This document shows, in pieces, positions 4,116 to 29,881 of a stretch of DNA of 64,000 bases. The DNA comes from Schmidtea nova (taxonomy: Eukaryota): assembly GCA_044892505.1 (NCBI GenBank), contig CM097882.1, forward strand, positions 253,952,001 through 254,016,000. Direction: 5' to 3'. The notes under the pieces are model-generated. The model made no database searches. It saw nothing but the letters and a program-made list of their open reading frames with translations, and was not told where the DNA came from. Positions within the stretch are counted from its first letter, which is position 1. Each line of letters begins with the position of its first letter. A program made the translations under genes and the position numbers.

Positions 4116-4119
4116 TTTT

Positions 4120-4548: not shown

Positions 4549-4935
4549 TGCTGGTGTGTTGGTTGGATTGACAACTGAGATCCTTATGATTTTATACGTT
4601 AGGGTGATCTCGCCAACATAAAAACATTTCCCCCGCTGACACCCATGATGTATCCCTAACTACTCATCATGTTGGTGCTGTGTCAACGTTGTGAAATGAC
4701 AAGGCAGGTGAGCAACCTTTCGGCTACTATTCCCTTGTTTATTCACGGGTCCACCACTACCGATAGAAGGTGTCTGTGGCTTTCTTTCGGTCCCACTTAT
4801 GCTCTTTACTTTGCTCTAGGGTAATTTATATTTTTGATATCTGCAGCCAAAAAATGAATCCGGGTTTTTGTTACTTTTAATTCTCATACATGCGTCAAAC
4901 AAACAAAACAAATCAAATCATTCATTTATATACAT

Positions 4936-5535: not shown

Positions 5536-5681
5536 GTGTCTGATTTTTCGGTCATCCTATCGTCATTAAACAGCTCTACCTTATCCTTAGGTTGTTCTCA
5601 TGCACTCAAAACAAAACAAGACCGTTGCACACCGATACATATATTTCAATATCTAAGACAATCATTCTTTCTCGGTATCAA

Positions 5682-11296: not shown

Positions 11297-11385
11297 TCTA
11301 CAACAATATTTACATCAATTTCCCCATATTTTTGATTTTTCTGGTTCTTTATTTACACGTATTTACACAATTTTCCGCTTATTCA

Positions 11386-11858: not shown

Positions 11859-14800
11859 CTATACAACTATTACTGGTTTTCCTTCGTACAGTTCCTCGTC
11901 CTCGATCTGTACCCACATCTCCTCGTGTTTCGATCGTCTTTTCAGTTCCTCTCGTACTTCTTTTGGTAGTTTTATGTTGTAGTTCGTGACCTTTACGTCT
12001 GGCCATTTTACTGCTATGGTCTTATTTCTCATGCCATATCTCCAACATACTATCATGATCGTTATCAGTGGGATACACGCTATGAATACTCCCATGCTGA
12101 TTAAACCCATTATTGTTTTCCCAATGCTCCTTCTTGGAGTCTCACTTTGGTTTATCATCACGCCATATTGACCTTTCCATTCTGCTTCCCATTGTTCATA
12201 TTGTTGTTGTCTCTGTCTGACTTCTTCGATCACTTTCTCTGGTTCCCATCTTTCTTGTTGATTTTGTAGTATTTCCTCCGTCTCTGTTTGTTCTCTTTTC
12301 TGACTCAATTCTCGGAATTCTAACTTGCGGGTTCTCCCCTTTATCGTTATGTTCCTTGGCGTGTAATAGGTTTCGCACCTTTCTTGTGGATTTCCTTGTG
12401 CATCTACTTCTTCGATTGCACACACTTCGTATTCTGCGTTTGTTTTCAACCTCCTCATTTCTACCTCGATTGTTTCCCTTTTATCATTTGATGTCTTTTG
12501 ACAGTTTCGTGGAGACTTTCCCATACTGTTTGGCATTAATGTCCAACAGATTTCTAGGACCTTTTTATGGATCTTCCATATTATCAGAGTCGTTGATTCC
12601 GGTTCGTTTTTTGTTGACGTCCCTTCTGTTGTCTGTTGAGTTCCTTGACTGTTGGTTGTCGTGGTTCTTCTTGACTTTCTTTTCCTTTGTCGACTTCCTC
12701 CCATTTCGATCGTTCTTGTACCGTTAATTTGCTCTGGCGTCTTGTACAGTCTGCACTCCAGGCTTCTTTGTATTACTTCTCTTATTCTTCGGATTACGCA
12801 AATTTCATATGCTTGTCCGACTTCGAATCCATTTAGTTGAAACGGGATTCCTCGTTCTCTCGTCCTGCATTGCGGTAGTACGTGACTGGTCGATACTCCG
12901 ATGTATTTTCTCCAACACATCCCAATTGTTCTCCGACCAATGTTTTTTATCTCCACGGTTACTACTTCATTCGCAATCGTTTCTTGATCTTGTTTCTTTC
13001 TTTTTGGGAACTCAATTATCTCCTTTGCTTGGAACACTTTACACTCGCTTGTTCCTGGTCTGTTTCCGTTTGCTGCCTTTTCCATGAGACATAGTTCACA
13101 TTTTCTATCTGTATCTATTTCGGTTATTTCGATTTCTTCATTTGTCTCTGCTTCTCGACTTTCTCTTGTTTCGCTGATTCCAATTACCTCATTGTTTCGT
13201 CCCCAACATCTTCCGTTCGTTGTTCGTTGGTCTTGGATATTTACTAACGTCATTACGCTAATATCTATGTCCTCCATGATTCTCTTAATGAGGATTAATA
13301 TTAATGCTACACATATCAATTCCGGTTGGAATGTTAATTTTCCCGCTGAATTTTTGGTTATTCTTTCTTTCTCCGTTCGGTTTCCGATTCCTTCTTCTGC
13401 TTCAGATTGATTCTTCCCTTTCTCCGATTCCACTTCTGTTCTTCTCGTTGTCTCTTCGCTTCTTTTCCCAATCCATTTCTGTATCTTTAGCGCTTCTGTT
13501 GCTTTATATAATTGACATGCAGTTACTTGAGGTGCTTTTGGTTCTCCTCTCTGCTTTACTGCGCATATTATGTATGATTTTTCTTTCTCCAATCCTTTGA
13601 TTTGGATGACGTCTCGCTTCAAATCTGATAATATACACTTCAGCGTATCGTTTTTCTTCAGATTTTCTTTCCAGCATATTCTTTCGTATACTTCATTTCC
13701 TCTGATTATTTCCAGCGTGACGTATTGTTTCTTGGCTTCGCCCTGTCCGATGATTGTTATCAATATCGCAATACACAACATTTCTGGTCTCAAAAGTAGA
13801 CTTCCTGTTCGTTTTCCATAGTTCGCATGTTCGTCTTTTGTTCCACTGTTTTCTCGTTCCTCTGCTTCTCCTTTCTTGTCGTTTCTTGTTGGCTTTGGTT
13901 CTTCTTGTCTTTCTTTTTCATTATCCTCTGTTCTTTTGTTGTCATTGTCTTCGTTGTTCTTTTCGCTGTTACTTTTGTCGTCGTAATCTCCGTAACCACC
14001 CCCTGGTCCTTTCGAAATGTCGTCCTCGACATTAATTTCTTCAATCAATCTTTCATACGCTTGAACCGCGAGTGTGCTAGACTCGAATTCACGTATTTCC
14101 ATATCCTTGGATGGTTCTATGTTTTCTAGTCCACTTTGCTTGATCGTTTCTTTGGCATTTGCCCATTCATTCACATATTTTCTGAACAAATCTTTCCATC
14201 TTCCCGTTCGTTCCTGTTCTTTTGGGTTGTTCGTAAATTTCAAATCTCTTCTCTTCAAGAATTCTTCTACTATCTCTGGCTTTTTGTGTCTTAGTAACGC
14301 GCTTCTGATACACCAATTCTGATTCTGTTCCATATTGTCATTGATCTTGAATGCCGGTTCCTTGGTGATCGGATTCACCCATGTTAGTAATGCTCTTGTT
14401 TTCTCTATGTCGTGTATCATTACTGTCAGACTGAAATTCTTTACGTTATTCGCCAGGTATTCTATCTCCTCTTGTCTCTTGATGGACTTTATGAACTTGA
14501 TCATTTCAAAGTTGTTCCATTGTATTGCGATATCTATGATGGAATTATTCTTTCCATTTTTCCCTTCGATTTTTGCTCCTGCTTCGTATAATTCACTTAG
14601 CGCTTTAAAGTTCGTCTTCTTTCTTGCTGCGATTATCATGATTGTATCTCCGTTATCATCAACCGTATTCATGTCCGCTTCGCATTTGACCATTGCTTTC
14701 GTTATTTCTAGCACTTCGTTTTCTTTCTTTCGACGTAATGCCCAGTGTATCGGCAATCTCCCATCCTTTGATAATAGGAATGCCACTGGCATTTGATTCT

Positions 14801-17800
14801 TGATCGTTTCTATGTCACTCTCGTTATAATCTCCTTGTGCGTATCTGTGCACTTTCTCTGTAATTGCTCCTAGTATCTCCAACGAGTTTTTATTCTCCTT
14901 GAATTCTGATAGTCTTTCTTGCGTTTTTGCTACGATTGCGTCTAGTCTCTCTTGATTATCAGCTTTTGCATTGAACAACACTGCTTTGCTTCTTATTCGC
15001 GTTTGCATCTGTTTCATTCGTTGGTCTTGATACACTGCTTGTCTGAAGAATTGTGCATACTTCAATGCTTCCATCAGCTCTTTATATCGCTTGCTTATTT
15101 CTTTGTGCTGCTTTTGGATGTCATAGAAATGTTCAAAGCTCATATCCGGATTCCATTGCTTATCACACCATTTCCTGATTAATCCGAATAATTCTTTCTT
15201 TCTGTCTTCCAACTTGTATTCTCTTGGGTTCTCGCTGACCCGTAGCGTATCTCTCGCTATTAACACTGCAAGTGTTTTTGGATCGTATGTTACTTCTAAT
15301 AGATGTTTCAGTAACACATTTTCTCCCCTTATGAACACTTCATTACAATCTATGACCCACGAATCTCCTTCTGGTCGTTTCCACTTTAGCAATATTCTCC
15401 AGGTTTTACTGTTCTTTACCCCGATTGCTTGTTTCATGATTGATCCTCTGGTTAGTTCATCGATTTCCCACGTGGCATTTTCCGTAATATACTTCAGTAT
15501 TCGGTGATTCGCTCTGTCAATTGCATGATTCAAGAATGTTCGTCCTTCTTTATCTTTTGCCATCCAATTCGATCTGGTGTTTCCGAATAGCTTGATTATT
15601 TCATCGTTTCTTCCGTGAATCGTCATCATCATGAGTGGAGTGATTCCTTCCCAATTCACTTTGTCAATTTCTCCTCCACCTTCGAGTATCATTTCCACGA
15701 TCTCTTTCACTTTTTCGTTTCCACTGTGCTTGATTGCATTATGTAACGCGGTATTACCATCTTTGTCTTGTAGATTCAATGTTTGAGGGATTTCCTCTAG
15801 CAGCGTTCTTGTTATTGGATGCGCTGTTCTGTCTTTTGCATACTCCATTACATACTTTCGAACTTCTGACAGTATATTGAAATCGAGCCACCATTTCCAT
15901 TCTGGTATAATTTCTCTGGTCCTCTTTGCCAGTTCTTTGATGTCTATTGCTTCTCTTCGATTGTCTTCTAGACTTGTTTGCGGCTTTTGTTGTACTCGCA
16001 ACATACTGATTCTCGCCGTCTGTGATCTTGTCATTACCCGTTTCTCTGGTGATAGAGTTGCTGTCTTTGGTATTTTCCTGCATCGACATGCATTCACGTA
16101 TATTGGTCTTACCAATGGATTGTTCACCAATCGTACTCGCACATTATTTTCATTCACTGTCGTGATTTCGTATGGCCCTTTGCCTGGTCGTTGGAGTTTC
16201 TTGACCGTACCGGGTATTATCTCTGGTGTCTCAATTATCACCCAATCTCCAACTTTTAAATCATGTGCTTTCACATTCTTTTTCTGATCATGTAGATCTT
16301 TATAACTCTCTTGATAGAACTTGATGTTTAGTTCCGCCGTTTTCCAGATTTCTTGCATTCTTTCTTTGAACTTTGTAACGTAATCGTCAACCTCCATGTA
16401 CTGTGATAATGGTGGTTGGTATTCTAAATCGATCGGTAAGTTGCAATCTCTTCCGTACATCAGTTGGAATGGACTTAGCTTTGTTGCCGCATGTATTGAC
16501 ATTCTATATGCCATTAAACACAGGTTTATATATTCATCCCAGTCAGTCTGATGTTTACTGACGTAATTCGACAACATGCGTATTAATGTTCCATTGAATC
16601 TTTCTGTTTGACCGTTCGTTTGCGGATGGTATGGGGATGTTCGTAATTTCGCAATTCGGAAGTAATTCGTAACTTCGTCTAATATTTCACTCATGAAATT
16701 CGTTCCTTGATCCGTTAGGATTTTCTTTGGTGTTCCGTATCTGCAGCATATCTCTTCCACCAATATTCTTGCGACTGTTTTCGCCTTTTGATCCGGTATT
16801 GCGAACGCTTCTGGGAACTTTGTTAGATAGTCTGTGACTACTAATATGTATTGATTTCCCTTCAAACTTTCCGGCAATGGTCCAACTACATCCATTGCTA
16901 TCGTCGCCATAGGTTCTGCAGGTATTGGCATTGGTTTTAGCGGTGTTTTCCACTTCGTTCCGACGTTCTTTCTTGTCGCACAGGTTAAGCAGTTCTTTAT
17001 CCATTCTTTCACATCATCTTCCATGGTTGGCCAAAAATACTTTTGTCTCAATCTCCCGATTGTCTTTTTCGCTGACATATGTCCGCCTAATTTTCCGTCA
17101 TGATATTGAGTCATGATTTCCTTTCGTCTATTCGCAGGTAAGCACATTAATCTTCGTTCTCCATCTTGTATCAATAACCATCCTTTTTCCATCACGTATC
17201 TATGTTGGTATTTTTGCATATGTTCGCGCAACGTTTGGTTCTTGCCGAATATTTCCAGTTCCCTTTCTTTCAGATACTTGCTGATCAATCCCAACTCCTC
17301 GTCTTCGAGTTGATCTTTCCTTAATTCGCTGAAATCCAGATCCTCCGCTATTAATGCACATATTTTCAGGGCGTTTAGGTTCACCAATTCTGGAAATGTA
17401 AACCTTGACATGCAATCCGCGTTTGCATTTGCTTTTCCTGCTTTAAACTTTATGAATGGCGAGTATTCTTGCAACTGCATCGCCCAACGCATCAATCTAC
17501 TTGATGATTCTTTATGTTGACCTAACCATACTAGCGGTTGATGATCCGTCGTGATATATATTTCATGACCCCACAGTAGGTACTTGAAATGCTTGATTGC
17601 CAATATTATCGCATAGGCTTCTCTTTCCGTGACTGAGTAATTCTTTTCATGCTTTCTGAATGTTCGACTGTAATATCCGATTACTCTTTCCTTGCCTTCT
17701 TCGTCAAATTGGCCTAGTACTGCTCCTGCTGCGTATCCACTTGCATCTGTTGCCAACAAAAATGGCTTCTTAAAATCTGGATGGACTAATATTGGTGCTG

Positions 17801-20800
17801 TAATCAGCTTATCTCGTAATGTTTCAAATGCTGCTTGCTGCTCTTCTCCCCATACAAACGACACATCTTGTCTTACCAATTCTTGCATTGGCTTTGATAT
17901 TCCTGCATAGTCCTTGATAAACTTGCGATAATATCCACACAATCCCAAAAATTCTTGTATTTGAGTCACTGTCTTTGGTGGTGGACATTCTTTGACTTTT
18001 TCGATATTCCTTGGATCTGGTTCTTTTCCTTTTGCTGATACAATGTGACCTAAGAATGTCACTTTTTCTTTTGCCCAATCGCACTTTGACGGCTTCAATT
18101 TCAGCTTCCACTGCCTCAATTTCACGAACACATTTCTGATGTCTTGTAAGTGATCTTCAAATGTTGCGGAGTAGATCAATAGATCGTCGATATACACCAT
18201 GCATTGTTTTATGCCATGTGTTACGAAATTCATGCATCTCTGGAATGATGCTGGCGCGTTTGTTAACCCAAACGGCATTTTCTTGAATTGGTACAGATCT
18301 CGTCCGATTGTAAATGCTGTCTTTTCTTTATCCTCGTCTTTCATTTTGATCTGCCAATATCCGCTTTTTAAATCCAGTGACGTGAAATAAGCTGCTCCTT
18401 GTAACGTCAATAACATTTCATTTATGTCTGGCAGTGGGTACGTATCTCTTTTCGTAACTGCGTTCAATCGTCTGTAATCGATACAGAATCTCTGAGTTCC
18501 ATCCTTCTTTTTTACCATCACCACTGGGAATTGCCAGGGTGAGCAACTAGGTTCGATGACCTCTGCATCTAACATCTTTTGTACCTCTTCTTCTGCCACT
18601 GCTTTTTGAGCTTCTGCCAATTTGTATGGTCGTAATGCGATTGGCGTTTCGTCCGTCAACGGTATCGTGTGTAATGTTACGTCACATGTTCCTAAATCCA
18701 GATCTGATGCTGCGAATATATCTTTATATTCCATCAACAGTTTCTGTAACTGTTCTTTTTGTCGTTCGTCTAACAACACACTGTCGATTTTCCATGGTAA
18801 TTCGTCTTTGCTTTTCTCGTTCTTGTCTGGTATTTCGATTTCGGACATGGGTGTCAATTTACCCAATCTCTCATTCTCGTATATTATCTTGTCCTCTTCG
18901 TCGAAGTTTACCAGATTGATCGGTATTTCTCCTTCTTGGTTTATCGTGACCAATTCTCTTGCTATTGGTAATTCTTTCTTTGCTTCGAACTTCTTACTTG
19001 GTTCGAATATCATGTCTCCTTTGATTGTCGAATCGATCTTGACGTAACACATCATTTCATGTCTCGCTGGCACTACTATTTGTTCCGCACTTGCCACTTT
19101 AACTTTCATCCTGCAGATTTTCCCTGTCCTATCTTTTAACTTCATTGCTCCTAGATCGATTACGATTTCCTTAAACAGGTCTGGCATCAGGTCAGTTCCA
19201 ATAATACATGGTACACTCAGCGATGGTATTACAGCGATGTACGTGTTGATTTCTGCACCTCGATGCTTAATTTTTACAAACCATCTTCCGGCTACTTCTA
19301 CTGTCTCCTGACTGCACGCGATTACATGTACATTCGTCTTCTCAATTTCTCCTTGGTTCTTCTCTGGTATATAATTAATGTCGATCGCCGAAATATTCGC
19401 GCCTGTATCGATCATCGCTTCGATTTCTCTTCCATTTATTTCTACGGTTGTTGTTAAAATCGGTCCCATGTTTGTGGACATAACCGCTATCGTGTGCGTG
19501 TCTTCTAACGAATTTACACTTCCACCTCGTTTTACTTTGCATCCTTCTGGAATTATCGGGTATATACTTGTCATCGGCATCATCTGCATCATATTCGGTT
19601 TCGCTTTGTATATCGGTTCGTTATACATTGACTGGGGTGGAGCACTGTATCTCCAATTCTCAACTGCACTCTTTTCGTTATACTGTGGAATCTGGTTTAT
19701 ATTCGCTTGTCCTCCTTGATCGTCATCGTCATCATCATCATTGCTTGAATCATCTTGTGTTCGATATCCCCTTACTCTTTCCCATAGTCCTTTTCTTTCT
19801 TTCTTTAGTTGTCGCCTTGCTTGTTCATCTTGCATTATCTTTTTGAATTTCCTTCCGACATCTTCATTTGTTCCTCTCATTTTTGCAAGTATCTTTAACA
19901 ACCTCTTTATTCGATGTATGTCTTTTGAGTGTCCGTGTAACACCATCGTTTTCGCAAGGAATGGCAAAAATCCTACTACCATCTTCCAATTCACTTTCTT
20001 CTCTCTCTTGTAGATATCGAAACACGCTAACATTTGCGTTATTATCACCCTGACGATTTGTATTATCAATATAACACCCAGTATTCCAGCCATCATTTGT
20101 CCAAATATCAGGAATCTTCCCCACATTGCCTTCATCATATTTTCTGTGGCTTTCTTGAAATGTGCCGGTGACAACAACAGTTCGTAATTCGGTCCTTCTC
20201 GATAATTCGTTCCTCCCGTTATTGTTACGATATTTGACAGTAATGCTTCTCTTCTTGCCGGGAATAATATATTCTGCCTTGCCGCTTCTAAATCTTTTGG
20301 ACTATAGATTCCGTTGTTTGAGACATCTACGTCACTGAACTGTCTATCCTTTGACAACTGCATTAGCTCAAATTCTCTTGGTGCTAATACTTCAGTTCTT
20401 CCTGGGAACATGACCCATTTGCCATCTGGCTTCTGATAAAGCGGTCCGTACGCGTTACTACAGTTGAACGGATTTGGTTCAAAACTTGGTGGATTGATGA
20501 TTCTCGTCACCGGTTGAACGTATCGTACTTTTCCTTTATAATCGATTTCTAGTTCGTTTGTACATTGTCCAGGTTTCAACTGCGTTGTTGCTGCTAGCGA
20601 TGCGTGTGTCTTTTCGCAAATGTATACATACATTGCTTCTCCGACCACTCTTCCGAAATGTCCTTCTCTCAGTGGTAATAATGGCATCGCGCTATCTGGA
20701 TTCGTAATCGCTACGGCCAACTTTGTCTTTAATATTTCTCGATTCAATATACAATCGTTGTTTATCAGATCATAGTACACTTTTTGCAATGAGGCTTGTC

Positions 20801-23800
20801 CTCTATGGAATAAGAAATCCATTTTATTATTCACATACAAGTGTAGCTTGATATCCATTGTGTCGATCTTGGGTTTCGCATTCGGCACTTCTTGCTTTGA
20901 CACGTATATTCCTGGATAGTTTGTTTCGTATACTGTTGTACTGCACTTAAGGGTTGCTTTCCCTTTTATGAATCTCATGCCCACATCCTGATTTGTGGTT
21001 ATCAACACTGTTGGTGTGGTTCTCATCTCTATCCGTTTCTCTCTATGATCCGGTTTCAATTGTCTTTTATTCTCTAAAGCCTCTTTGAGATGTTTTGCTC
21101 TAGCTTTGTCATCATCATCTTCTTCTTGGAACGTTTTGCCTTGAATTTCGTCGAACTTTGCTCCTTGTAGCAGTTGTAATTGACATTCGTTCACCTTTGG
21201 TTTGTACACCAAAGTTGACATTCCCGTTTGACACATGCTTCTGTCAATTTTACACATGGATAACGTTTTCATTTCTCCTGTTGTTGGTTCGAAGAATGCT
21301 TCGTAGCTTTTCAGTTCGACTATATACGTATCCATTACCACTAAGTTGGTTGCGGGTACTCCGAATATTGGGTAGGTTTCTCCTTGACAATATCCTTCTC
21401 CTCCCGTAATCCGTCCTGCTACATAATATGTCTGCTGCAACATCATTCCTGGCTTTCCTTTTATCTTGATTTTATCTCTCGTTGTCACTTCTCCATGTTT
21501 AAACAATGCTTCGCAGTCTTCTCCTTGCAACACGATTGGTTCTCTTTCGGTTCCTGGCATGACAATTGCCGAATAATGTCCTCTCCCACAATAGAATGCG
21601 AATCTCGTCTTCTGTACCTTGCATTCATTCACCATTGTCTTTATTAGTTCTGCCTCTTGATACACGTGGTACCATTGTTCCTTTTTGATCTCTTTCAATT
21701 CTACTGGGGTTGCATCTTTGCATTGCTCCGTACCTCTCAATGAGTACTTTTCTCCTAACTTCATTTGATCACAATCAAATACTTCAAATGTTGTTGCACC
21801 CTCTGTGCTTAACAACCATACTAACATCATCATGATTATCGAGTTCAAATTCAACGTCGATCTTCCGTTTCCTTGCATTGTTTGTCTATTCTCCATTTCT
21901 CTCAATACTCCTTCGAGTTTCTTTCTCATCACGTTAGAACCTTCTTTTGTCTGATTCTCTTTTATGAACTTTTCCCATCCTCCTTTCCTGAGGATATATG
22001 GTTCAATTTCTTTCTCGATAATCATCGTCGTATTTTTAATATGTCTTCCCATCGGACTTGACTTCGGGCTTCCTCGGCTTAGCGTTAACAAATTGTATAT
22101 TGTATACGAGATTGCTACTAGATATTTACTGTCCGTCTCTGCTCCGTTAAGTAGCCTTTTTATTAACATAGTGGTTCCTTGCCAATCTAGATGATTCGAT
22201 TTTGTTTTTGCCTTTATCAATTCTGGCATAATCGGTGCTATCGCATTGTGTAGCATCCTTGCCTTTGTACTGGGTTCGTTTATCCGCCACAAATTCTTTA
22301 ATTCTGGATCAATTATCGCCAACACATCCATTATCGTTTTGGTGAGCCATTCTTCTCCTTGACAGACTTGATTCTCCTCTTTGCCTCTGATTTCTGCGAT
22401 TTTGTCTAATTTCTTTAAGCAAATCTCCCATTGCTCTTGTCTCCTTTCTTCCCTTGTTTTTGGGATTGCTGTTGTTGGATCTATCTTTGGTCTTCCTCTT
22501 GGTCGTTTTTCCATTCCAGTTCCGGTTTCTACAAATCTCGTTGCTCTTCCTGTTTCTTCCGTAACATCTCTTCCTTCGTTTGCTCGCTGTTCTAACCATC
22601 TTTCCATTTCTTGAGTAAACTGGGGTTGTTCTTGTTCGTCTTCCGAATCGTTCACCATTTCTATGACTACCTCTTGCTCCACTTCTTGATCGTCGATTTC
22701 TGCTGGTGACGTTATTGGCATCTCTATTATTCTGTCAAAAATATTCGCCGTTGGTTTTTGAGTCAACTTTGTTAGTTCTTCTATCGCCTCATCACTATCT
22801 GTTAGTATCTCATCGACGTCATACGCTTCTGGCGGTGTTCTCTCTCTCGTTTTGATTGGTGTTGTCCTTGCTTGTCCCGAACTTGTTCCTGGGGTCATTG
22901 TTGACTTCATCGGACTTGGTGTACTCATGCTTCCTTTCGCTTTCTTTTCCTCTTTGAACTTCAGTGGTTGACCCACTATTTGTGCCACTGTTAGCGTATT
23001 CATTAGATCCAATTGCACTGGTGTCAGCCAGATTTCCAAATTGTTATCCAACGATCGTCCTTGATGTTGCAGGTGGAATGGTAGTTCGTACATCAGTTTC
23101 TCTTTAACACTTTTCACTTTTTCCGTTAGCATCACCCAAAACTCTTCTTTTCTCTGATTCGGATACATTATCCTCAAATGTATTTTCTGTGGCGTTTCTT
23201 CCGCAAATTCTCGGTTTCTCCACTTTTTTATTACGTCGTCTAGTTGCTCTGGACACCACTTGTTAACTCTCTTGTATTCTGCTATCGCTTTAGCTACTTT
23301 TCTCAAGTTCGTTATGTCTTCTCCATTTGAGATTATGAAACCTGCTAAACCTTTTATTGTTTGTCTTTTTCCCCGAGTATTTCCTCTCAACAGCTCGATC
23401 AATTCACTCGTTTTCTGTTTCTCCAATTCTGCCCATATTACTGCAGTTTCTGGTCCGTCTAAGTCCGTTGGTAATAACCTCCTTGTTACCATACATATCC
23501 GTTTCGTATTCCGTTCATTTCCGTCTTCTCCTTCCGGATCTTCTTCATACACGCCTCTTTTCACTTTCCAACATTTCTCTTTGTTATCCCATTGCTTCTC
23601 TACTGGCGTCAATCGTCGTCTATTAAGATCCAATTCTCCCAATATTGTCTCCCATTCTGGCTTCATCTGCCAGTTCCGATAGATTTCTACTATCTGCCTC
23701 AGCTTACGCATAACGTCCTCTTGTCGTTTCTTTTTCCTTTCCTCATCCCTTGGTGTTGCTCTTTGCACATCATCCATTCTGATGACGTGTATTGTCTGAT

Positions 23801-26753
23801 AATTATCCCATATGCCGATTTTATACGCTCGTCTTCCATCACGTTCATTCAGTAGATGTTCTTTGTATTTTATAGCGATGTCATCCTCAAATTCGTCTTC
23901 CCGTTCTCGTTGTAATATCGTCTCATTGATGACATCTACTATTTCTCCCACTTTACTATCTGGTATTACCTCAATTTGTCTTGTCTCTTCATTCGGTAAT
24001 CTCACGGTAATCTTCAGATCTGATACCTCTCCTCTTTTAAACATTTCTTTTCCCATCTTTGCGATTAGCTTGTCCGTTTTGAAATTCGAATGTCTCGTTT
24101 GACTTGTATCTCGTATGTTCTCGATACATTGCTTCAAATTCTCATACTCGCTTTTCGTCAGTTCCTTTCGATGTTTCTTGATTTGTTGGATGATCTGTTC
24201 TATCATCGTATTCAAATTCTCTGCCAAGACTCTTTCTTTTGCCTCTACCAACTGAGGTTTTATTCTCATCTCGTAACACGTATTCGCTTCTTTGACGATT
24301 CCTTGTAAGTTCTCTTCCTTTTTGGTGTTGCATATAGATAGCGTTGTTATTTCTCCTGGCCAGATGCCTGTGTCTATCATATGCGTTCCTTTTCTCACCA
24401 ATCCGTTTTCCGAATATATGAATTTGTCTTTGTACGAGCTTCCCAATCTGTCCTCAACCCATCGGTAAATTCCGTCTGTCACTGGGTTCCTTATCCAGAT
24501 TCTCGGTGAACACTCGTTTATCCATATCTGTATTATGTATTCGTTCAGTGGTTCTTTCAATAGCCTCTCTATGAATTCTTGTATTACCCTCACTTCTCTT
24601 TCTTGTAACCACTCTTTATACTTCATCTGCCATACTGCTCGTATAAACTTTCTATATCGTTTCCCGTCGATAAACTCTTCGTTGTGGATTACTTCTAACG
24701 CGTTATCCATCAGCTTCTGAATTTCGTCTTCCCTTACTGACACTGTTTCTATTGTCTCGACTACTTCCATCTTTTTATCCTCGTTTTCCGGTTCCTTTAG
24801 CATGTCTCCTGCCAGACTGCTAACTTCGCTGTCGTCTTCTTCATCTGACAATTCTTGTCTTGGGTGTCTCAGCATCCCAATATGCGCGGTTGGTCTCGCT
24901 TCGTTTTTGCTAACTTCCTGTGTTAGTTCACTTTCGTTTCCCGTTACTTCAGCTTTTCCCATTCTTTTCTCTAACTCATCTATTTCTTCCAACCGTCTTC
25001 GTCTTATTTTTCCCTTGAATATTCGACTGATCCGAGTTTGGTGTTTCACTGGTGGTGGGATTTTCTCCGGTTCCACCTCTCTGATGATCATCACGTTTAT
25101 TTTCGTCTCCGTTACTCCCATATCTTCCCATATATCGGTCATCTTTAACTTCACTTCTGGCAAATCCTCTGTTTGTAGGAATGCTTCTCTGGGCAGTTTC
25201 GTTATTCCCGGAATCATCTCATTTACTTTATTGAACAGTCTTCCCACTTCTTCTTTTACATCGTATTTGAATCGCCATACGTGATCATTCGGCATGATCA
25301 CCAACATTCCTCTTTGTTTGATTCTCACTTCCTCTTCTTGATTCGTTTCTTTTTCTGTTTCTGTTTCTTTTTCCACTTCTTCATCCTTTTGATTCTGCTC
25401 TGCGACTTCTACTTCCTGATTCACTTCTTCTTGTTTCTGTTCTTCGTTTCTTTTCTCTTTAACTTCTAACTCGTCTGACTCATCCTGCTGCTTCTCTTCC
25501 ATCATTGCTCGCATCATGTTGATCCTTGGATTTCCTTTCTTTAACTGTTGTAACCGTTGTTGCCTGACTTGTTCTTCTTCTCGTCGTACTCTGGCCCATT
25601 CTTGATTATGTTTCTGTTGGCTTTCTCTATTTTCTCTTTCGGCCTCAGCTTCTATTAGCTGGATCATGTTTATCTTTGGTTGAGCAGCTTGTTGGCTTCC
25701 TTTTGCCATGCTTTCGATTATCTCGTGTAATCTGGATACCTCCTGTCTCAACTTGGCTTCTTTCATACTGGCTTCATTTGCACTGCTATTTGGGTTATTC
25801 CGTTGTTGACCCTGATTCCCATAGCTTGGTCGATTCTCGTAATTCGGTCTATTTCCACTGTTTGACCAACTTCTCTGTTGATTACAGTCTCTTGACATGT
25901 GTCCGGTTTTTCCACATGTGTAACACGTTTTCCCATAACATCGATTTTCTGAGTGACCCTTTTGTCCACACAGTTTACAGGCTACATTCTGAAAACACTC
26001 TTGTTGCCAATGTCCGTTTTTCCCACACGTCTGACATTGCCTATTCTGCCTGTCATTGTAACTATTTCCTCCATTCGTATTCACCGTAATATATCCGTTA
26101 TTCTTCCTCGCTGGCGGTTCTTTGAACAATCTCTGCGAATGGGGAATACTTTGATTCATGTTTCTTTTTCCTTGTTCTTCATCTTCTGTCGTTTTTCCCA
26201 TTACCGCCGTAATTCTCATGTCATTCATTGCCATATGCAATTCGAATAGGTTGGCTGCTTCCAACGCTTCATCTACTGTTTTACATCCCTTGCATCCCAC
26301 TTGTGCTCTGATGTCAGGTCTCCTGAGACCTCGTACGAATAACGCTGTCATCAATTCTTCGTCTACTGGGCTTCCTCTATTGAATGCCAGTTTCGCCAAC
26401 TTTCTTAATTCACTTGCGTACACTGCATTTGACTCGTTTCTCCTCTGTTTTCTTGCTGAGAACTCATCGAACGCTTCGTTCAACACTTTATTTATCCCAA
26501 ACGTCTGTTGGAAGAACTCCTTGATCGCTTCCCACGTTCTGGGTGGATTACTTCCCGATCTCTTCTCAATATACAGATCCAATGCGCTATCTTTTAAGTA
26601 TAGCGGGATTCGATTCGCTAACGTTTCTGCACTCCATCCGCATATATCCACGAATATGCCAAATTCCTTCAGGAACGTGTCCAATCTACTGGCGTCTCCA
26701 TTAAATGGTTCGCCCTTGAATTTTTCTCTTAGATCCTCTCTGTGATCACTCAT
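11859..26753 (-). CDS. gag-env-pol: Single 4,964-aa polyprotein: Gag, 3 CCHC knuckles, Ubl-like x3, AT-hook, Bcl-2-like, Env, PR, RT, RNase H, IN, ankyrin repeats, FN3-like repeats, TM
   Basis: Uninterrupted ORF with motifs CxxCx4Hx4C x3, IDTGA, YIDD, LATDASG, H-H-C-C zinc domain, MDVVGP/TDQG/TERFN, GPYE and GNTALHNA. Confidence 0.95.
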   Translation of the reverse strand: MSDHREDLREKFKGEPFNGDASRLDTFLKEFGIFVDICGWSAETLANRIPLYLKDSALDLYIEKRSGSNPPRTWEAIKEFFQQTFGINKVLNEAFDEFSARKQRRNESNAVYASELRKLAKLAFNRGSPVDEELMTALFVRGLRRPDIRAQVGCKGCKTVDEALEAANLFELHMAMNDMRITAVMGKTTEDEEQGKRNMNQSIPHSQRLFKEPPARKNNGYITVNTNGGNSYNDRQNRQCQTCGKNGHWQQECFQNVACKLCGQKGHSENRCYGKTCYTCGKTGHMSRDCNQQRSWSNSGNRPNYENRPSYGNQGQQRNNPNSSANEASMKEAKLRQEVSRLHEIIESMAKGSQQAAQPKINMIQLIEAEAERENRESQQKHNQEWARVRREEEQVRQQRLQQLKKGNPRINMMRAMMEEKQQDESDELEVKEKRNEEQKQEEVNQEVEVAEQNQKDEEVEKETETEKETNQEEEVRIKQRGMLVIMPNDHVWRFKYDVKEEVGRLFNKVNEMIPGITKLPREAFLQTEDLPEVKLKMTDIWEDMGVTETKINVMIIREVEPEKIPPPVKHQTRISRIFKGKIRRRRLEEIDELEKRMGKAEVTGNESELTQEVSKNEARPTAHIGMLRHPRQELSDEEDDSEVSSLAGDMLKEPENEDKKMEVVETIETVSVREDEIQKLMDNALEVIHNEEFIDGKRYRKFIRAVWQMKYKEWLQEREVRVIQEFIERLLKEPLNEYIIQIWINECSPRIWIRNPVTDGIYRWVEDRLGSSYKDKFIYSENGLVRKGTHMIDTGIWPGEITTLSICNTKKEENLQGIVKEANTCYEMRIKPQLVEAKERVLAENLNTMIEQIIQQIKKHRKELTKSEYENLKQCIENIRDTSQTRHSNFKTDKLIAKMGKEMFKRGEVSDLKITVRLPNEETRQIEVIPDSKVGEIVDVINETILQREREDEFEDDIAIKYKEHLLNERDGRRAYKIGIWDNYQTIHVIRMDDVQRATPRDEERKKKRQEDVMRKLRQIVEIYRNWQMKPEWETILGELDLNRRRLTPVEKQWDNKEKCWKVKRGVYEEDPEGEDGNERNTKRICMVTRRLLPTDLDGPETAVIWAELEKQKTSELIELLRGNTRGKRQTIKGLAGFIISNGEDITNLRKVAKAIAEYKRVNKWCPEQLDDVIKKWRNREFAEETPQKIHLRIMYPNQRKEEFWVMLTEKVKSVKEKLMYELPFHLQHQGRSLDNNLEIWLTPVQLDLMNTLTVAQIVGQPLKFKEEKKAKGSMSTPSPMKSTMTPGTSSGQARTTPIKTRERTPPEAYDVDEILTDSDEAIEELTKLTQKPTANIFDRIIEMPITSPAEIDDQEVEQEVVIEMVNDSEDEQEQPQFTQEMERWLEQRANEGRDVTEETGRATRFVETGTGMEKRPRGRPKIDPTTAIPKTREERRQEQWEICLKKLDKIAEIRGKEENQVCQGEEWLTKTIMDVLAIIDPELKNLWRINEPSTKARMLHNAIAPIMPELIKAKTKSNHLDWQGTTMLIKRLLNGAETDSKYLVAISYTIYNLLTLSRGSPKSSPMGRHIKNTTMIIEKEIEPYILRKGGWEKFIKENQTKEGSNVMRKKLEGVLREMENRQTMQGNGRSTLNLNSIIMMMLVWLLSTEGATTFEVFDCDQMKLGEKYSLRGTEQCKDATPVELKEIKKEQWYHVYQEAELIKTMVNECKVQKTRFAFYCGRGHYSAIVMPGTEREPIVLQGEDCEALFKHGEVTTRDKIKIKGKPGMMLQQTYYVAGRITGGEGYCQGETYPIFGVPATNLVVMDTYIVELKSYEAFFEPTTGEMKTLSMCKIDRSMCQTGMSTLVYKPKVNECQLQLLQGAKFDEIQGKTFQEEDDDDKARAKHLKEALENKRQLKPDHREKRIEMRTTPTVLITTNQDVGMRFIKGKATLKCSTTVYETNYPGIYVSKQEVPNAKPKIDTMDIKLHLYVNNKMDFLFHRGQASLQKVYYDLINNDCILNREILKTKLAVAITNPDSAMPLLPLREGHFGRVVGEAMYVYICEKTHASLAATTQLKPGQCTNELEIDYKGKVRYVQPVTRIINPPSFEPNPFNCSNAYGPLYQKPDGKWVMFPGRTEVLAPREFELMQLSKDRQFSDVDVSNNGIYSPKDLEAARQNILFPARREALLSNIVTITGGTNYREGPNYELLLSPAHFKKATENMMKAMWGRFLIFGQMMAGILGVILIIQIVRVIITQMLACFDIYKREKKVNWKMVVGFLPFLAKTMVLHGHSKDIHRIKRLLKILAKMRGTNEDVGRKFKKIMQDEQARRQLKKERKGLWERVRGYRTQDDSSNDDDDDDDQGGQANINQIPQYNEKSAVENWRYSAPPQSMYNEPIYKAKPNMMQMMPMTSIYPIIPEGCKVKRGGSVNSLEDTHTIAVMSTNMGPILTTTVEINGREIEAMIDTGANISAIDINYIPEKNQGEIEKTNVHVIACSQETVEVAGRWFVKIKHRGAEINTYIAVIPSLSVPCIIGTDLMPDLFKEIVIDLGAMKLKDRTGKICRMKVKVASAEQIVVPARHEMMCYVKIDSTIKGDMIFEPSKKFEAKKELPIARELVTINQEGEIPINLVNFDEEDKIIYENERLGKLTPMSEIEIPDKNEKSKDELPWKIDSVLLDERQKEQLQKLLMEYKDIFAASDLDLGTCDVTLHTIPLTDETPIALRPYKLAEAQKAVAEEEVQKMLDAEVIEPSCSPWQFPVVMVKKKDGTQRFCIDYRRLNAVTKRDTYPLPDINEMLLTLQGAAYFTSLDLKSGYWQIKMKDEDKEKTAFTIGRDLYQFKKMPFGLTNAPASFQRCMNFVTHGIKQCMVYIDDLLIYSATFEDHLQDIRNVFVKLRQWKLKLKPSKCDWAKEKVTFLGHIVSAKGKEPDPRNIEKVKECPPPKTVTQIQEFLGLCGYYRKFIKDYAGISKPMQELVRQDVSFVWGEEQQAAFETLRDKLITAPILVHPDFKKPFLLATDASGYAAGAVLGQFDEEGKERVIGYYSRTFRKHEKNYSVTEREAYAIILAIKHFKYLLWGHEIYITTDHQPLVWLGQHKESSSRLMRWAMQLQEYSPFIKFKAGKANANADCMSRFTFPELVNLNALKICALIAEDLDFSELRKDQLEDEELGLISKYLKERELEIFGKNQTLREHMQKYQHRYVMEKGWLLIQDGERRLMCLPANRRKEIMTQYHDGKLGGHMSAKKTIGRLRQKYFWPTMEDDVKEWIKNCLTCATRKNVGTKWKTPLKPMPIPAEPMATIAMDVVGPLPESLKGNQYILVVTDYLTKFPEAFAIPDQKAKTVARILVEEICCRYGTPKKILTDQGTNFMSEILDEVTNYFRIAKLRTSPYHPQTNGQTERFNGTLIRMLSNYVSKHQTDWDEYINLCLMAYRMSIHAATKLSPFQLMYGRDCNLPIDLEYQPPLSQYMEVDDYVTKFKERMQEIWKTAELNIKFYQESYKDLHDQKKNVKAHDLKVGDWVIIETPEIIPGTVKKLQRPGKGPYEITTVNENNVRVRLVNNPLVRPIYVNACRCRKIPKTATLSPEKRVMTRSQTARISMLRVQQKPQTSLEDNRREAIDIKELAKRTREIIPEWKWWLDFNILSEVRKYVMEYAKDRTAHPITRTLLEEIPQTLNLQDKDGNTALHNAIKHSGNEKVKEIVEMILEGGGEIDKVNWEGITPLMMMTIHGRNDEIIKLFGNTRSNWMAKDKEGRTFLNHAIDRANHRILKYITENATWEIDELTRGSIMKQAIGVKNSKTWRILLKWKRPEGDSWVIDCNEVFIRGENVLLKHLLEVTYDPKTLAVLIARDTLRVSENPREYKLEDRKKELFGLIRKWCDKQWNPDMSFEHFYDIQKQHKEISKRYKELMEALKYAQFFRQAVYQDQRMKQMQTRIRSKAVLFNAKADNQERLDAIVAKTQERLSEFKENKNSLEILGAITEKVHRYAQGDYNESDIETIKNQMPVAFLLSKDGRLPIHWALRRKKENEVLEITKAMVKCEADMNTVDDNGDTIMIIAARKKTNFKALSELYEAGAKIEGKNGKNNSIIDIAIQWNNFEMIKFIKSIKRQEEIEYLANNVKNFSLTVMIHDIEKTRALLTWVNPITKEPAFKINDNMEQNQNWCIRSALLRHKKPEIVEEFLKRRDLKFTNNPKEQERTGRWKDLFRKYVNEWANAKETIKQSGLENIEPSKDMEIREFESSTLAVQAYERLIEEINVEDDISKGPGGGYGDYDDKSNSEKNNEDNDNKRTEDNEKERQEEPKPTRNDKKGEAEERENSGTKDEHANYGKRTGSLLLRPEMLCIAILITIIGQGEAKKQYVTLEIIRGNEVYERICWKENLKKNDTLKCILSDLKRDVIQIKGLEKEKSYIICAVKQRGEPKAPQVTACQLYKATEALKIQKWIGKRSEETTRRTEVESEKGKNQSEAEEGIGNRTEKERITKNSAGKLTFQPELICVALILILIKRIMEDIDISVMTLVNIQDQRTTNGRCWGRNNEVIGISETRESREAETNEEIEITEIDTDRKCELCLMEKAANGNRPGTSECKVFQAKEIIEFPKRKKQDQETIANEVVTVEIKNIGRRTIGMCWRKYIGVSTSHVLPQCRTRERGIPFQLNGFEVGQAYEICVIRRIREVIQRSLECRLYKTPEQINGTRTIEMGGSRQRKRKSRRTTTTNSQGTQQTTEGTSTKNEPESTTLIIWKIHKKVLEICWTLMPNSMGKSPRNCQKTSNDKRETIEVEMRRLKTNAEYEVCAIEEVDAQGNPQERCETYYTPRNITIKGRTRKLEFRELSQKREQTETEEILQNQQERWEPEKVIEEVRQRQQQYEQWEAEWKGQYGVMINQSETPRRSIGKTIMGLISMGVFIACIPLITIMIVCWRYGMRNKTIAVKWPDVKVTNYNIKLPKEVREELKRRSKHEEMWVQIEDEELYEGKPVIVV
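12040..13790 (-). other. C-terminal membrane-associated region with 3-4 FN3-like Cys-Trp repeats and three hydrophobic segments
   Basis: Repeats containing ICW/MCW and IKGLEKEKSYIICAV, LNGFEVGQAYEICVI, MRRLKTNAEYEVCAI (FN3-type L...Y.I/V.V pattern); TM GLISMGVFIACIPLITIMIVCW. Confidence 0.5.
14400..15800 (-). other. Two clusters of ankyrin repeats C-terminal to integrase
   Basis: NLQDKDGNTALHNAIK, DKVNWEGITPLMM, DKEGRTFLNHAID; SKDGRLPIHWAL, NTVDDNGDTIMIIAA, GKNNSIIDIAI. Confidence 0.85.
16050..19470 (-). other. pol: Pol core: aspartic protease (~19140-19470), RT (~18000-18600), RNase H (~17400-17760), integrase (~16050-17110)
   Basis: IEAMIDTGANISAI; FQFKKMPFGL, YIDD; LATDASG, TEREAYAI, TDH; HDGKLGGH...CLTC, D-D-E triad, GPY. 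Confidence 0.95.
19950..21855 (-). other. env: Envelope glycoprotein of chuvirus/Monjiviricetes (class III, gB-like) type within polyprotein
   Basis: Signal peptide NSIIMMMLVWLLSTEGA|TTFEVFDC; Cys-rich ectodomain; furin-like REKR; YVNNKMDFLF...CILNREILKTKLAVAITNPD...GHFGRVVGEAMYVYIC, as I recall from chuvirus-type G; TM FLIFGQMMAGILGVILIIQIVRVII. Confidence 0.8.
21960..22352 (-). other. Candidate Bcl-2-like domain within polyprotein
   Basis: BH2-like YILRKGGWEKFI (cf. WIxxxGGWxxF) and weak BH1-like NHLDWQGTTMLI in a ~130-aa helical segment. Confidence 0.5.
25884..26753 (-). other. Gag capsid-like domain and three CCHC zinc knuckles (part of polyprotein)
   Basis: EPFNGDASRLDTFLKEF...LYLKDSALDLY (retrotransposon Gag); CQTCGKNGHWQQEC, CKLCGQKGHSENRC, CYTCGKTGHMSRDC. 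Confidence 0.9.
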
Positions 26754-28088
26754 CCCGATTCCACTATCTTGGAATACTGTACTAGTTTTCTTTACTTCTA
26801 GTTCACCACTTGTTTCTGAATTCGACTCTTCTTCTCCGCTACTCTCTGTTTCGTTATCTCTTGATTCGCTTCTTGTTCTGTTTTCCCTGACTAGTTCACT
26901 GTCTATCGTCTCTACTTCGTTTTGTACTTCTAGATCTTCTGGGGTTTCTTCTTGGTTCTCTTTATTACTCGAATTATCGCTGATCTCTACTTGTTTGTTC
27001 TTTTGCTGCTTAGGCTTGTTACCTGTTCTTGTCCTTTTTGCTGCTTTTCTTTCTGCTTCCGTTAAGATTGGTATTATACCTGATCTTGTTTCTCGTCCCT
27101 CAATTTTGTCTATTCCTCAACTTCTTATATTCTCAACTGATTTTCTACTCCGCTTTTGCTTTGCTTCTTCTTTGATTTGTTTCCTTTGATTGCTCTGACT
27201 GCTAGATTGCTTTGAATTGCTTGATTGATTTGTTTCCTTAAAACAAATAATCACTTACACGATACGTCCCCGTTATCGTGTTTCTCGTCCCTCTCACGGG
27301 TGTAGTCATAATTCATGAAGATCCCCATTTTTCCCATTCCCCTTGATTTTAAGTCTATTTAAATTATCTATGCAGTCGTATCAATTATCTATTCTTTATC
27401 AAATACACCAATTACTTTTCCCCAGTTTCCCAATTACTTTGTCGCTCAGCGCTCTTATTATCCCCTTTACTTTTTCTCAGGCTTCTCTGGCTCTGAGTTC
27501 AAATTTCCCCTTATCTGTCGACTAGTCTGTTTTTCGACTACTCACTTTATCTCCTATTCACACTACGTTTACTACTTCATTTCAATTCTCATCTCTACTC
27601 ACCTTTAATTCAACTGACATCTCTCGTTGGCCTGTTGGGCTTTCCAATCAGCGCCTTTCATCTCACCCTTTATCTCGACTTTATTACTCTCAACATCACT
27701 CATTATCTCATTAGCCTGCTGGGTTTTCCAGTCAGCGCTTTTATGATCCTCCATTTACCTCTTTGCTGTCGACTTCTAACTGCTCTTTACTTTTCATCAC
27801 TTTTCATACTGTTACTCCACATACTATTCATCATGCTTCATTCATCCCCATATTTTCACATTCATACTTTCATTCTCATGCATACTTTTATCATGCTCAT
27901 CAATCTCATTATTTTACACTCATATTTTTATTTATTATTTTTCAACCCGATTCATTCTTGCTTCAGGACCCTCAAACCCTCTATTATTTACTTTACTTTT
28001 CCTCGCTAAATTCAATTCCATCCCGGTTCATGCGCTCTAACACTGTCCGCAGATATCGAATTCACTTTTTCCCACAAAGATCGATTTA

Positions 28089-28106: not shown

Positions 28107-28499
28107 AATTTATGCTGGTGTGTTGGTTGGATTGACAACTGAGATCCTTATGATTTTATACGTTAGGGTGATCTCGCCAACATAAAAACATTTCCCCCGC
28201 TGACACCCATGATGTATCCCTAACTACTCATCATGTTGGTGCTGTGTCAACGTTGTGAAATGACAAGGCAGGTGAGCAACCTTTCGGCTACTATTCCCTT
28301 GTTTATTCACGGGTCCACCACTACCGATAGAAGGTGTCTGTGGCTTTCTTTCGGTCCCACTTATGCTCTTTACTTTGCTCTAGGGTAATTTATATTTTTG
28401 ATATCTGCAGCCAAAAAATGAATCCGGGTTTTTGTTACTTTTAATTCTCATACATGCGTCAAACAAACAAAACAAATCAAATCATTCATTTATATACAT

Positions 28500-29099
28500 T
28501 TATTTGTAGTTCAACAATACAGAGGGTCGGATTACATTTAGTAGTTCTTGCTCGGATAGACCACTGAGCAAGTCTACCTCGATTCCTACGCGATCTGCAT
28601 ATGCGCGTCTTTCCCTGCGCTTTTTCGCTCCTAAACGATTCCGTCTCTTTGTGCGTTGTGAGCCTGCGGGAATCGTATTTGTCACTGTAGTAGTCGTGGC
28701 TACGGTCGAGGCATTCTCTGTTTGGGTGCTCGTAGTCACCGCTATCGCGTCTATCCATCGATTAAAGGTGCTAGCTCTGATCACTGGGCGTAGTTGGTCG
28801 GTGATGAAGTCGCGAGTCGATACCTTCAAATAATTCGCCAACTCCAATTTCAGGGCTGCAATCTCTCTGGCATGGTCCTCAGCTACTCGTTCTGCCCTGT
28901 ACCTAGCCTGCAGGATGGACTTAACCCGCTCTGGGTTAAACCAGGTAGTCTTAATCCGCTGATGCTCCTCATTCAGCTGCCTTAATCGATTTTCCAGGAC
29001 TCGTGAGCGCGCCTTGTGTTCTCGCGCCTCTTGCTTGAAGTCTCTGCCCTCGGTTTCCGTCATGTCTGTAAATACATCATTAATGTTAGTATCTGTCAT
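28500..29099 (-). CDS. Copy of the 199-aa LTR ORF in the 5' LTR
   Basis: Identical translation to 4936..5535. Confidence 0.55.
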   Translation of the reverse strand: MTDTNINDVFTDMTETEGRDFKQEAREHKARSRVLENRLRQLNEEHQRIKTTWFNPERVKSILQARYRAERVAEDHAREIAALKLELANYLKVSTRDFITDQLRPVIRASTFNRWIDAIAVTTSTQTENASTVATTTTVTNTIPAGSQRTKRRNRLGAKKRRERRAYADRVGIEVDLLSGLSEQELLNVIRPSVLLNYK

Positions 29100-29245
29100 G
29101 TGTCTGATTTTTCGGTCATCCTATCGTCATTAAACAGCTCTACCTTATCCTTAGGTTGTTCTCATGCACTCAAAACAAAACAAGACCGTTGCACACCGAT
29201 ACATATATTTCAATATCTAAGACAATCATTCTTTCTCGGTATCAA

Positions 29246-29881
29246 TCAATTGAATGTCCTCAATTCCTGATCGGCAGGATGCTCGTCGCGGCGAATTCCA
29301 TTCTCCCAATACATTTCTGGGGCTGGGGTCCAACTCAGCTTATCTTTGTAGATAAACACCTCCCAGAGGCGAAGCTCCTTGGGCTCGGGGTGTTGTTCCA
29401 CGGAAACACTTCCTGGTGCATTGGAATAAGTGAAGACTTCCTCAGTGTAGCGACACCGAGGCCTGTCTAGCAGCAGGTATCCTAATTGGAAAAGAGCCCT
29501 TCCGGTCATCATTTCATTGCTCAATACCCAGCGGGGTCGTCTTTGCTCGTCGAGAAATTGGAAGAACCATCTATCGGTCCTTGGTTCGGCAGGATCCATG
29601 GTGGACATCCAATCGGGGTCTCCTTCCCATCGTAATTGTATCGTGAAGGCGCAAGCCGGAACATCTGCGGCTGCACTCATATGGTGTCTTGTCCACCGCC
29701 GTAGATGTCGACGCGCAGTTTCGCTAATTCTGCGTGGGGCTTCCATTTCTCCCTCGATGGTAGGGATCCTCCTTGGCCGGACGACGGAACGGATGCGTCG
29801 TGGTTTCCGGACGACATAATCTTCCATTTTCATCTGTCGATAGGTGCTCGGACTTCTTTGATATTCTTCGGTCTTTATCAT
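29246..29881 (-). CDS. Copy of the 211-aa LTR ORF in the 5' LTR
   Basis: Identical translation to 5682..6317. Confidence 0.55.
   Translation of the reverse strand: MIKTEEYQRSPSTYRQMKMEDYVVRKPRRIRSVVRPRRIPTIEGEMEAPRRISETARRHLRRWTRHHMSAAADVPACAFTIQLRWEGDPDWMSTMDPAEPRTDRWFFQFLDEQRRPRWVLSNEMMTGRALFQLGYLLLDRPRCRYTEEVFTYSNAPGSVSVEQHPEPKELRLWEVFIYKDKLSWTPAPEMYWENGIRRDEHPADQELRTFN

What the first reader, a model, noticed from the sequence alone, without database searches (positions are those of the whole stretch)
21960..22352. Candidate Bcl-2-like domain just before the Env signal peptide
Seen: YILRKGGWEKFI (BH2-like) and a weak BH1-like NHLDWQG, about 35 aa upstream of the hydrophobic Env signal sequence. 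Established: Bcl-2 proteins are C-tail-anchored and viral Bcl-2s are highly divergent. Inference: after signal peptidase cleavage the signal peptide could serve as the tail anchor, giving a membrane-bound anti-apoptotic protein from a retrotransposon polyprotein.
Basis: inference. Interest (0 to 1): 0.72.

Follow-up and report, generated by a model that had tools for sequence, protein, structure and literature searches.

The report
Bcl-2 domain in giant Burro-type retrotransposon
A giant virus-like jumping gene carries a much-changed copy of the cell-death regulator Bcl-2 just before its envelope protein, where the envelope's signal peptide would likely tether it to a membrane and it likely helps keep the host cell alive; the cargo itself is already in print for planarian Burro elements.

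Summary
The domain is real. Window 21948-22373 (minus strand) lies in a 5085-aa gag-env-pol polyprotein of a 26.8-kb Burro-type Gypsy element. It has no Pfam Bcl-2 hit itself, but it is homologous to sister-element domains (E 2e-13), two of which pass Pfam's Bcl-2 cut-off. A model folded from element rows only matches Bcl-2 structures (Z 13.4; top 36 rows all Bcl-2 fold, next Z 5.8). BH2 is correct. The hydrophobic stretch is an ordinary Env signal, alike in elements with and without Bcl-2. Tethering by it is plausible topology, at the ER rather than mitochondria, and untested; anti-apoptotic function is untested too. BCL2 directly before env is already described for Burro elements (PMC6431247), and this scan found the same thing in two other genomes.

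The parts
21948..22373 (-). Bcl-2-fold domain (polyprotein aa 1582-1723)
   Evidence: AF2 model on element-only alignment; VIA Z 13.4, rmsd 2.8, 136 aligned to 6wgz; homology chain
22101..22157 (-). BH1-equivalent and start of helix 5; NWGR positions read T-D-S-K
   Evidence: alignment and profile alignment to Bcl-xL
21966..22001 (-). BH2 motif PYILRKGGWEKF
21789..21854 (-). Internal Env signal sequence, the candidate membrane anchor; cleavage before FEVFDC is inferred from the -3/-1 rule, no signal predictor was run
   Evidence: same segment and [YF]DC motif start free-standing relatives that begin with Met
19857..21788 (-). Env, mononegavirus/chuvirus-type fusion glycoprotein with TM at 20096-20040; the low end is approximate
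   Evidence: Pfam PF24664 E 1.6e-73; hydropathy
22485..22508 (-). AT-hook-like motif KRPRGRPK, about 40 aa before the domain (motif name recalled)
   Evidence: also in elements that lack Bcl-2
11859..27116 (-). 5085-aa open frame: Gag (CCHC knuckles) - unknown region - Bcl-2 - Env - PR - RT - RNase H - IN - ankyrin repeats
9884..11314 (-). Accessory TRAF gene (RING, TRAF zinc finger, MATH) inside the element, 3' of the polyprotein
28113..31394 (-). 5' LTR (3282 nt), followed after 6 nt by a tRNA-Pro-like primer site (assignment recalled)
4549..7830 (-). 3' LTR, 99.97% identical to the 5' LTR; 4-nt target duplication TTAT

Best explanation
This is a divergent Bcl-2-fold domain in the polyprotein of a Burro-type giant Gypsy element, likely captured once from a host gene, likely left tethered to the cytosolic face of the ER by the Env signal sequence after signal peptidase cuts Env off, and likely acting there as a pro-survival factor through a non-standard surface. 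Shown: fold, homology, position, purifying selection, loss of NWGR, ordinary Env-type signal. Inferred: release from upstream domains by the element's protease (nearest site-like motif RICM-V at aa 1207-1210, which would give a product of about 560 aa that includes the AT-hook-like motif), ER tethering, and the anti-apoptotic role. My odds by step: Bcl-2 homolog 0.97; lasting tether by the signal about 0.6; pro-survival role about 0.55.
For: Fold. Homology chain window -> sister domains -> Bcl-xL. One capture: 16 element domains fall on one side of a branch against 11 host exons (89/86). Selection: dN/dS 0.07 in the first half of the domain, synonymous sites saturated with dN 0.20 in the second. 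Tether: domain, signal and Env share one frame; 9 of 25 element rows have no Met between BH2 and the hydrophobic core, so Env cannot start there on its own ATG; HCV core keeps the E1 signal at its C-terminus until signal peptide peptidase cuts it (PMC7601889, passage). Function: the best structural matches are cellular BH3-binding proteins (Z 11-13) ahead of poxvirus A52/B14/A46 (Z 8.3, 7.0, 6.6); the basic residue at the NWGR arginine position is kept as K in this lineage; a Burro1 BIR/RING cargo is reported to protect stem cells from apoptosis (as cited in PMC13465017, passage); the host has Bak-like genes with a canonical BH3.
Against: The NWGR glycine is absent in 25 of 25 rows with a letter there and the arginine position is hydrophobic in 13 of 25; loss of this Gly is taken to make a working BH3 groove unlikely or to alter its selectivity (PMC8998228, passage). 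Helix 2 carries no BH3 motif. The signal is no longer or more hydrophobic in Bcl-2-bearing elements (16 vs 12, p 0.40-1.0) and the window's is among the weakest (13-residue core). Linker plus signal is poorly conserved. 10 of 25 rows have a Met exactly 25 residues before the Env motif and the window has Met at -33, -39 and -50, which would allow Env to start separately. No Foldseek match reached E 0.001 and mean pLDDT is 73.
Confidence: 0.5

Rival explanations
1. The Bcl-2 fold has been repurposed as a non-apoptotic signalling antagonist or scaffold, like vaccinia A52, B14, A46 or K7, working with the element's own TRAF and ankyrin proteins on NF-kB-type signalling.
For: Degenerate BH1 across all element families; TRAF and ankyrin repeats in the same element; precedent for Bcl-2 folds that target NF-kB (PMC7022251, passage).
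Against: Structure scores closer to cellular BH3 binders than to A52/B14/A46; BH2 is strictly kept; some related elements carry Bcl-2 in a 3073-aa polyprotein with no ankyrin-like tail evident on reading (L066; not scanned).
Confidence: 0.2
2. The domain is a Bcl-2 homolog but not lastingly anchored: signal peptide peptidase or the element's protease frees it, or Env is made from its own RNA, and the AT-hook-like basic motif takes the released product to nucleic acid or the nucleus.
For: Short 13-residue hydrophobic core; HCV core is released this way; Met at -25 in 10 of 25 rows; basic motif upstream; Env was exchanged between subfamilies with a break at about the signal cleavage site.
Against: 9 of 25 rows lack such a Met; no protease-site-like motif of the kind seen elsewhere lies between aa 1210 and 2543 (loose motif scan).
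Confidence: 0.22
3. The hydrophobic segment is the captured Bcl-2 gene's own tail anchor, re-used as the Env signal.
For: It follows BH2 at 45-79 residues to the Env motif in 25 rows, roughly where a tail anchor would sit.
Against: The same segment precedes Env in 12 elements with no Bcl-2 domain and in 10 free-standing proteins that start with Met; in P0002, P0004 and P0005 the basic motif and the signal are present without the domain between them.
Confidence: 0.05
4. Chance resemblance of a helical region to Bcl-2.
For: No direct Pfam, PDB-sequence or ESM Atlas hit for the window sequence alone; the single-sequence model was poor.
Confidence: 0.02

Closest known systems
Burro-2/-3/-4 and the Dugesia tigrina Burro-like element (PMC6431247 section 7, read in full; Grohme 2018 and Jurka 2007 only as cited there)
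   Same: Giant Gypsy element; one frame of about 5000 aa with Gag, BCL2-like motif, env in frame between BCL2 and PR, then PR-RT-RH-IN and ankyrin repeats; mononegavirus-like fusion protein; TRAF/MATH in a separate ORF.
   Different: Here the TRAF ORF is 3' of the polyprotein (the review says upstream for D. tigrina); no BIR was found in the frames scanned. The review says nothing on BH1 loss or on the signal as anchor. No Burro sequence was available for a direct comparison.
Cellular pro-survival Bcl-2 proteins (Hydra Bcl-2-4 6wgz, Bfl-1 6rjp, Bcl-xL 3spf)
   Same: Helical bundle, Z 12.4-13.4, rmsd about 3 A; BH2 GGW; BH1-to-BH2 spacing.
   Different: 9-14% identity; NWGR reduced to TDSK; no BH3; part of a polyprotein; C-terminal hydrophobic stretch is a cleavable signal.
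Viral Bcl-2 proteins (gammaherpesvirus BALF1 and BHRF1, ASFV A179L, KSHV Bcl-2; poxvirus A52/B14)
   Same: Captured, divergent Bcl-2 folds in mobile genomes; best viral match BALF1, E 3.7e-3.
   Different: Those are stand-alone genes of DNA viruses; this one is a polyprotein domain of a retroelement.
HCV core / E1 junction
   Same: A cytosolic domain ends in the signal sequence of the following glycoprotein.
   Different: A topology analogy only; no homology.

Membership tests
Bcl-2 fold proteins | Helical bundle around a central hydrophobic helix | tested here: met
   Z 13.4, rmsd 2.8, 136 aligned; top 36 rows all Bcl-2 fold, row 37 Z 5.8
Bcl-2 fold proteins | Sequence homology to PF00452 | tested here: met
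   Indirect: none for the window alone; E 2e-13 to a sister profile; sisters L046 and L048 34.5 and 33.1 bits against a cut-off of 31.4; family profile to Bcl-xL E 1.4e-8
Canonical multi-BH pro-survival Bcl-2 | BH1 with NWGR | tested here: not met
   Window reads TDSK; Gly in 0 of 25 rows, K/R at the Arg position in 12 of 25
Canonical multi-BH pro-survival Bcl-2 | BH2 (WIxxxGGW) | tested here: met
   YILRKGGW; G and W invariant in 26 of 26 rows
Canonical multi-BH pro-survival Bcl-2 | BH3 motif on helix 2 | tested here: not met
   Model helix 60-69 (aa 1617-1626) has no conserved Asp; read
Canonical multi-BH pro-survival Bcl-2 | C-terminal tail anchor | tested here: inconclusive
   Hydrophobic stretch present but not distinguishable from Env signals of elements without Bcl-2
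Canonical multi-BH pro-survival Bcl-2 | Binds BH3 ligands and blocks apoptosis | not testable with these tools
   needs binding and cell assays
Burro-type giant Gypsy elements | One frame Gag-BCL2-Env-PR-RT-RH-IN-ankyrin of about 5000 aa | tested here: met
Burro-type giant Gypsy elements | Very large size with long LTRs, many copies | tested here: met
   26.8 kb, 3.28-kb LTRs; 150 scored of 1079 candidate places
Burro-type giant Gypsy elements | MATH/TRAF cargo | tested here: met
Burro-type giant Gypsy elements | BIR domain (Burro1) | tested here: not met
   No BIR family hit in the polyprotein pieces, 3 accessory ORFs or 2 LTR ORFs scanned; shorter ORFs not scanned
Burro-type giant Gypsy elements | Sequence identity to a named Burro family; planarian host | not testable with these tools
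   No Burro sequence held; the host is inferred from the element type only

The most novel reading that the evidence does not exclude
Burro-type elements have turned a captured Bcl-2 into a new kind of effector: a groove-degenerate Bcl-2 fold slotted between an AT-hook-like motif and the Env signal, made one-to-one with Gag and Env, and tethered to the ER by that signal like HCV core. It would tune ER death or NF-kB signalling with the element's own TRAF, or line the particle envelope as a matrix-like protein.
Probability: 0.2. Interest if true: 0.62.

Novelty: new member of a known kind. Interest (0 to 1): 0.25.

Why it matters
The cargo is known, so the discovery value is low. What this adds is a structural confirmation, the family-wide loss of the NWGR glycine, and the finding that the anchor candidate is the ordinary Env signal. 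Since another Burro cargo (a BIR/RING protein) is reported to protect planarian stem cells, a second apoptosis-type cargo in highly active relatives is a ready test of whether these elements manage host cell survival in more than one way.

Tried and rejected
Direct searches with the window domain alone found nothing: Pfam, PDB sequences (13), ESM Atlas (12), word-indexed search of longer proteins (15). The single-sequence model (pLDDT 51) gave no usable fold match (52). The alignment search returned only P0059. Complex prediction of the domain with the BH3 exon of a host Bak-like gene gave no answer (runs 0.00, 0.38, 0.01; mark 0.34; alignments not used) and is not evidence either way. No RNA holder listed; the contigs laid are of unknown kind and say nothing on expression or splicing. 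The donor host gene could not be placed: the tree is open among host rows (83), although exon L041 scored best on the element profile (71). The Env tree is mostly unresolved (62; 4 short rows dropped); holding the 11 Bcl-2-bearing rows together against 10 others is marginally rejected (p-AU 0.03, quick tree, 86), which fits losses or Env swaps. The 87 synonymous versus 5 non-synonymous variants among 29 copies (79) are biased, because copies were chosen by protein score, and are not relied on. NHLDWQG as BH1 and KKLDKIAEI as BH3 (too far from BH1, outside the matched fold) were rejected. The Dev Cell 2026 Burro1 paper and Grohme 2018 were not held; they or their supplements may already discuss the BCL2 domain or its anchor. 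Paper searches showed no paper on the anchor idea (listings only).

Full report
Context. The finding lies in a 5085-codon open frame on the minus strand (11859-27116). Pfam gives, in order, CCHC knuckles, a Monjiviricetes-type fusion glycoprotein (E 1.6e-73), aspartic protease, RT, RNase H, integrase and ankyrin repeats; a TRAF gene follows at 11314-9884. LTRs of 3282 nt, 99.97% identical, with a TTAT target duplication bound a 26.8-kb element, so the insertion is recent. In the own genome 150 of 1079 candidate places were scored: 139 at 76-100% identity and 11 of a sister subfamily at 65-67%. This is the layout described for planarian Burro elements, where a BCL2-like motif was noted in Burro-2, -3 and -4 and env lies in frame between BCL2 and the protease (PMC6431247, section 7 read in full). 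The host is probably a planarian; no call names it.

Is it Bcl-2? The window sequence alone hits nothing. Searching the genome with PF00452 (150 scored of 1679 candidates) gave, among the 30 best loci, 14 host-type exons and 16 element copies of two other families; where the frame is intact the match sits just before a hydrophobic stretch and an Env start. Those domains pass Pfam's cut-off (34.5 and 33.1 bits against 31.4). A search of 1.84 billion representatives with domain plus Env start gave 87 proteins; 7 carry the domain before the Env signal, and 4 of these 7 have weak Pfam Bcl-2 hits of their own. A profile of 9 such domains, without the window's lineage, scores the window domain at 47 bits (E 2e-13) among 1602 sequences; the best of 1000 shuffles reached 13.8 and the best unrelated frame 17.3. 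The family profile finds Bcl-xL in the PDB at E 1.4e-8 over BH1-helix 5-helix 6-BH2. AlphaFold on 26 element rows, with no host Bcl-2 included, gave pLDDT 73. VIA-align placed Hydra Bcl-2-4 first (Z 13.4, rmsd 2.8, 136 aligned); rows 1-36 are all Bcl-2 folds and row 37 drops to Z 5.8. Z near 13 can be chance for helical bundles; the uniform list is the argument. Foldseek's 47 listed PDB rows are all Bcl-2 family, but none reached E 0.001 (best 5.4e-3); the best viral row is a BALF1. The fold covers aa 1582-1723 (22373-21948).

Motifs. BH1 is not NHLDWQG, whose W occurs only in the 3 rows of this lineage; it is RLLNGAETDSKYLVAISY, aligned to ILFRTGINWDRVVTALAY of L046. At the NWGR glycine 0 of 25 rows have Gly (D 10, E 7, N 4, S 3, T 1); at the arginine 12 of 25 have K or R, including the window, and 13 have V, I or L. 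The rows are not independent: 13 belong to one clade. A review passage takes loss of this glycine as making a working groove unlikely or changing its selectivity (PMC8998228). Helix 2 has no BH3. The domain is nonetheless kept: against the sister subfamily dN/dS is 0.07 in its first half, and dN is 0.20 with saturated synonymous sites in its second half; upstream regions give 0.09-0.30 (L031). Sixteen element domains fall on one side of a branch against 11 host exons (89/86), which fits one old capture; the donor is unresolved.

The anchor. The stretch at 21854-21789 precedes a [YF]DC motif that also follows N-terminal signals in free-standing relatives. It is the same in 16 Bcl-2-bearing and 12 Bcl-2-less elements: median best 19-residue hydropathy 1.83 versus 1.91, core 13 versus 11.5 residues, p 0.40-1.0 (scales recalled; some of the 12 are short upstream). 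In P0002, P0004 and P0005 the basic GRP motif and the signal stand without the domain, in P0001 and the window with it between them. So the signal belongs to Env and was not brought in by Bcl-2. If Env is made from the polyprotein, whatever precedes the signal stays attached to it after cleavage, facing the cytosol at the ER; HCV core is the precedent, and it is later freed by signal peptide peptidase (PMC7601889, passage). For the polyprotein route: 9 of 25 rows have no Met between BH2 and the hydrophobic core. Against it: 10 of 25 have a Met exactly 25 residues before the Env motif, and the window has three Met in the linker. Linker plus signal is only 51% identical between subfamilies.

Function. 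I commit to a pro-survival role through an altered surface (about 0.55 for that step; 0.5 for the whole account). The fold scores nearer to cellular BH3 binders than to the poxvirus NF-kB antagonists A52, B14 and A46, another Burro cargo is reported to protect stem cells from apoptosis (cited in PMC13465017, passage), and the host has Bak-like genes with a canonical BH3. The main rivals are an NF-kB-type antagonist role beside TRAF and ankyrins (PMC7022251, passage) and a released, non-anchored product. None was tested.

Verdict. Real, a new member of a known kind, already found twice by this scan in other genomes. Interest 0.25.

Noticed in passing
window 19857-21788 versus L031/L032: Env is 97-98% identical between two subfamilies (dS 0.29-0.69) while the flanks are 51-78% identical (dS mostly above 1.2 or saturated): the env module was probably exchanged by recombination, with one break at about the signal cleavage site.
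   Followed up: partly
window 22485-22508: AT-hook-like KRPRGRPK before the domain; a related GRP motif stands before the Env signal in L031, L048, P0001, P0002, P0004 and P0005, with or without Bcl-2.
   Followed up: partly
window 9884-11314, 8634-9824, 8036-8566 (minus): Three accessory ORFs 3' of the polyprotein: a full TRAF, a coiled-coil-like 396-codon frame and a small membrane protein; only TRAF has a clear Pfam match.
   Followed up: no
window 28500-29120 and 29246-29995, repeated at 4936-5556 and 5682-6431: Two open frames of 206 and 249 codons inside the LTR, no Pfam match.
   Followed up: no
window ORF aa 482, 532, 673, 746, 1207, 2543, 3252, 3703: Recurring I-N/S/G/C-M/V/A-hydrophobic motifs at domain borders, probably protease sites (inference).
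   Followed up: partly
L066:635-9853, L069, L072, L101, L102, L103, L113, L120: At least eight further Burro-like lineages in this genome carry the domain before Env; those sized have frames of about 3070-3400 codons; one clade has lost the basic BH1 residue as well.
   Followed up: partly
P0002, P0009, P0013, P0021, P0044: Related elements with a long N-terminal region (Gag-like in most), Env and protease in one frame but no Bcl-2; hosts unknown. P0009 is filed by its source under a bacterial genome bin, probably contamination.
   Followed up: partly
G000:C1:503.55-503.72 Mb (L040, L042, L125, L134): Convergent pair of host Bak-like genes; one has the BH3 LASIADTL, the other a degenerate one.
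   Followed up: partly
L041, L043, L047, L055, L061, L064: An expanded group of small host Bcl-2-like genes with Ser at the NWGR glycine position; L043 looks intronless.
   Followed up: no
window 1-4548: The element sits inside another Gypsy-like element on the minus strand: RT/protease-region similarity at 3-1059 and a gag-like frame at 2324-4177.
   Followed up: no
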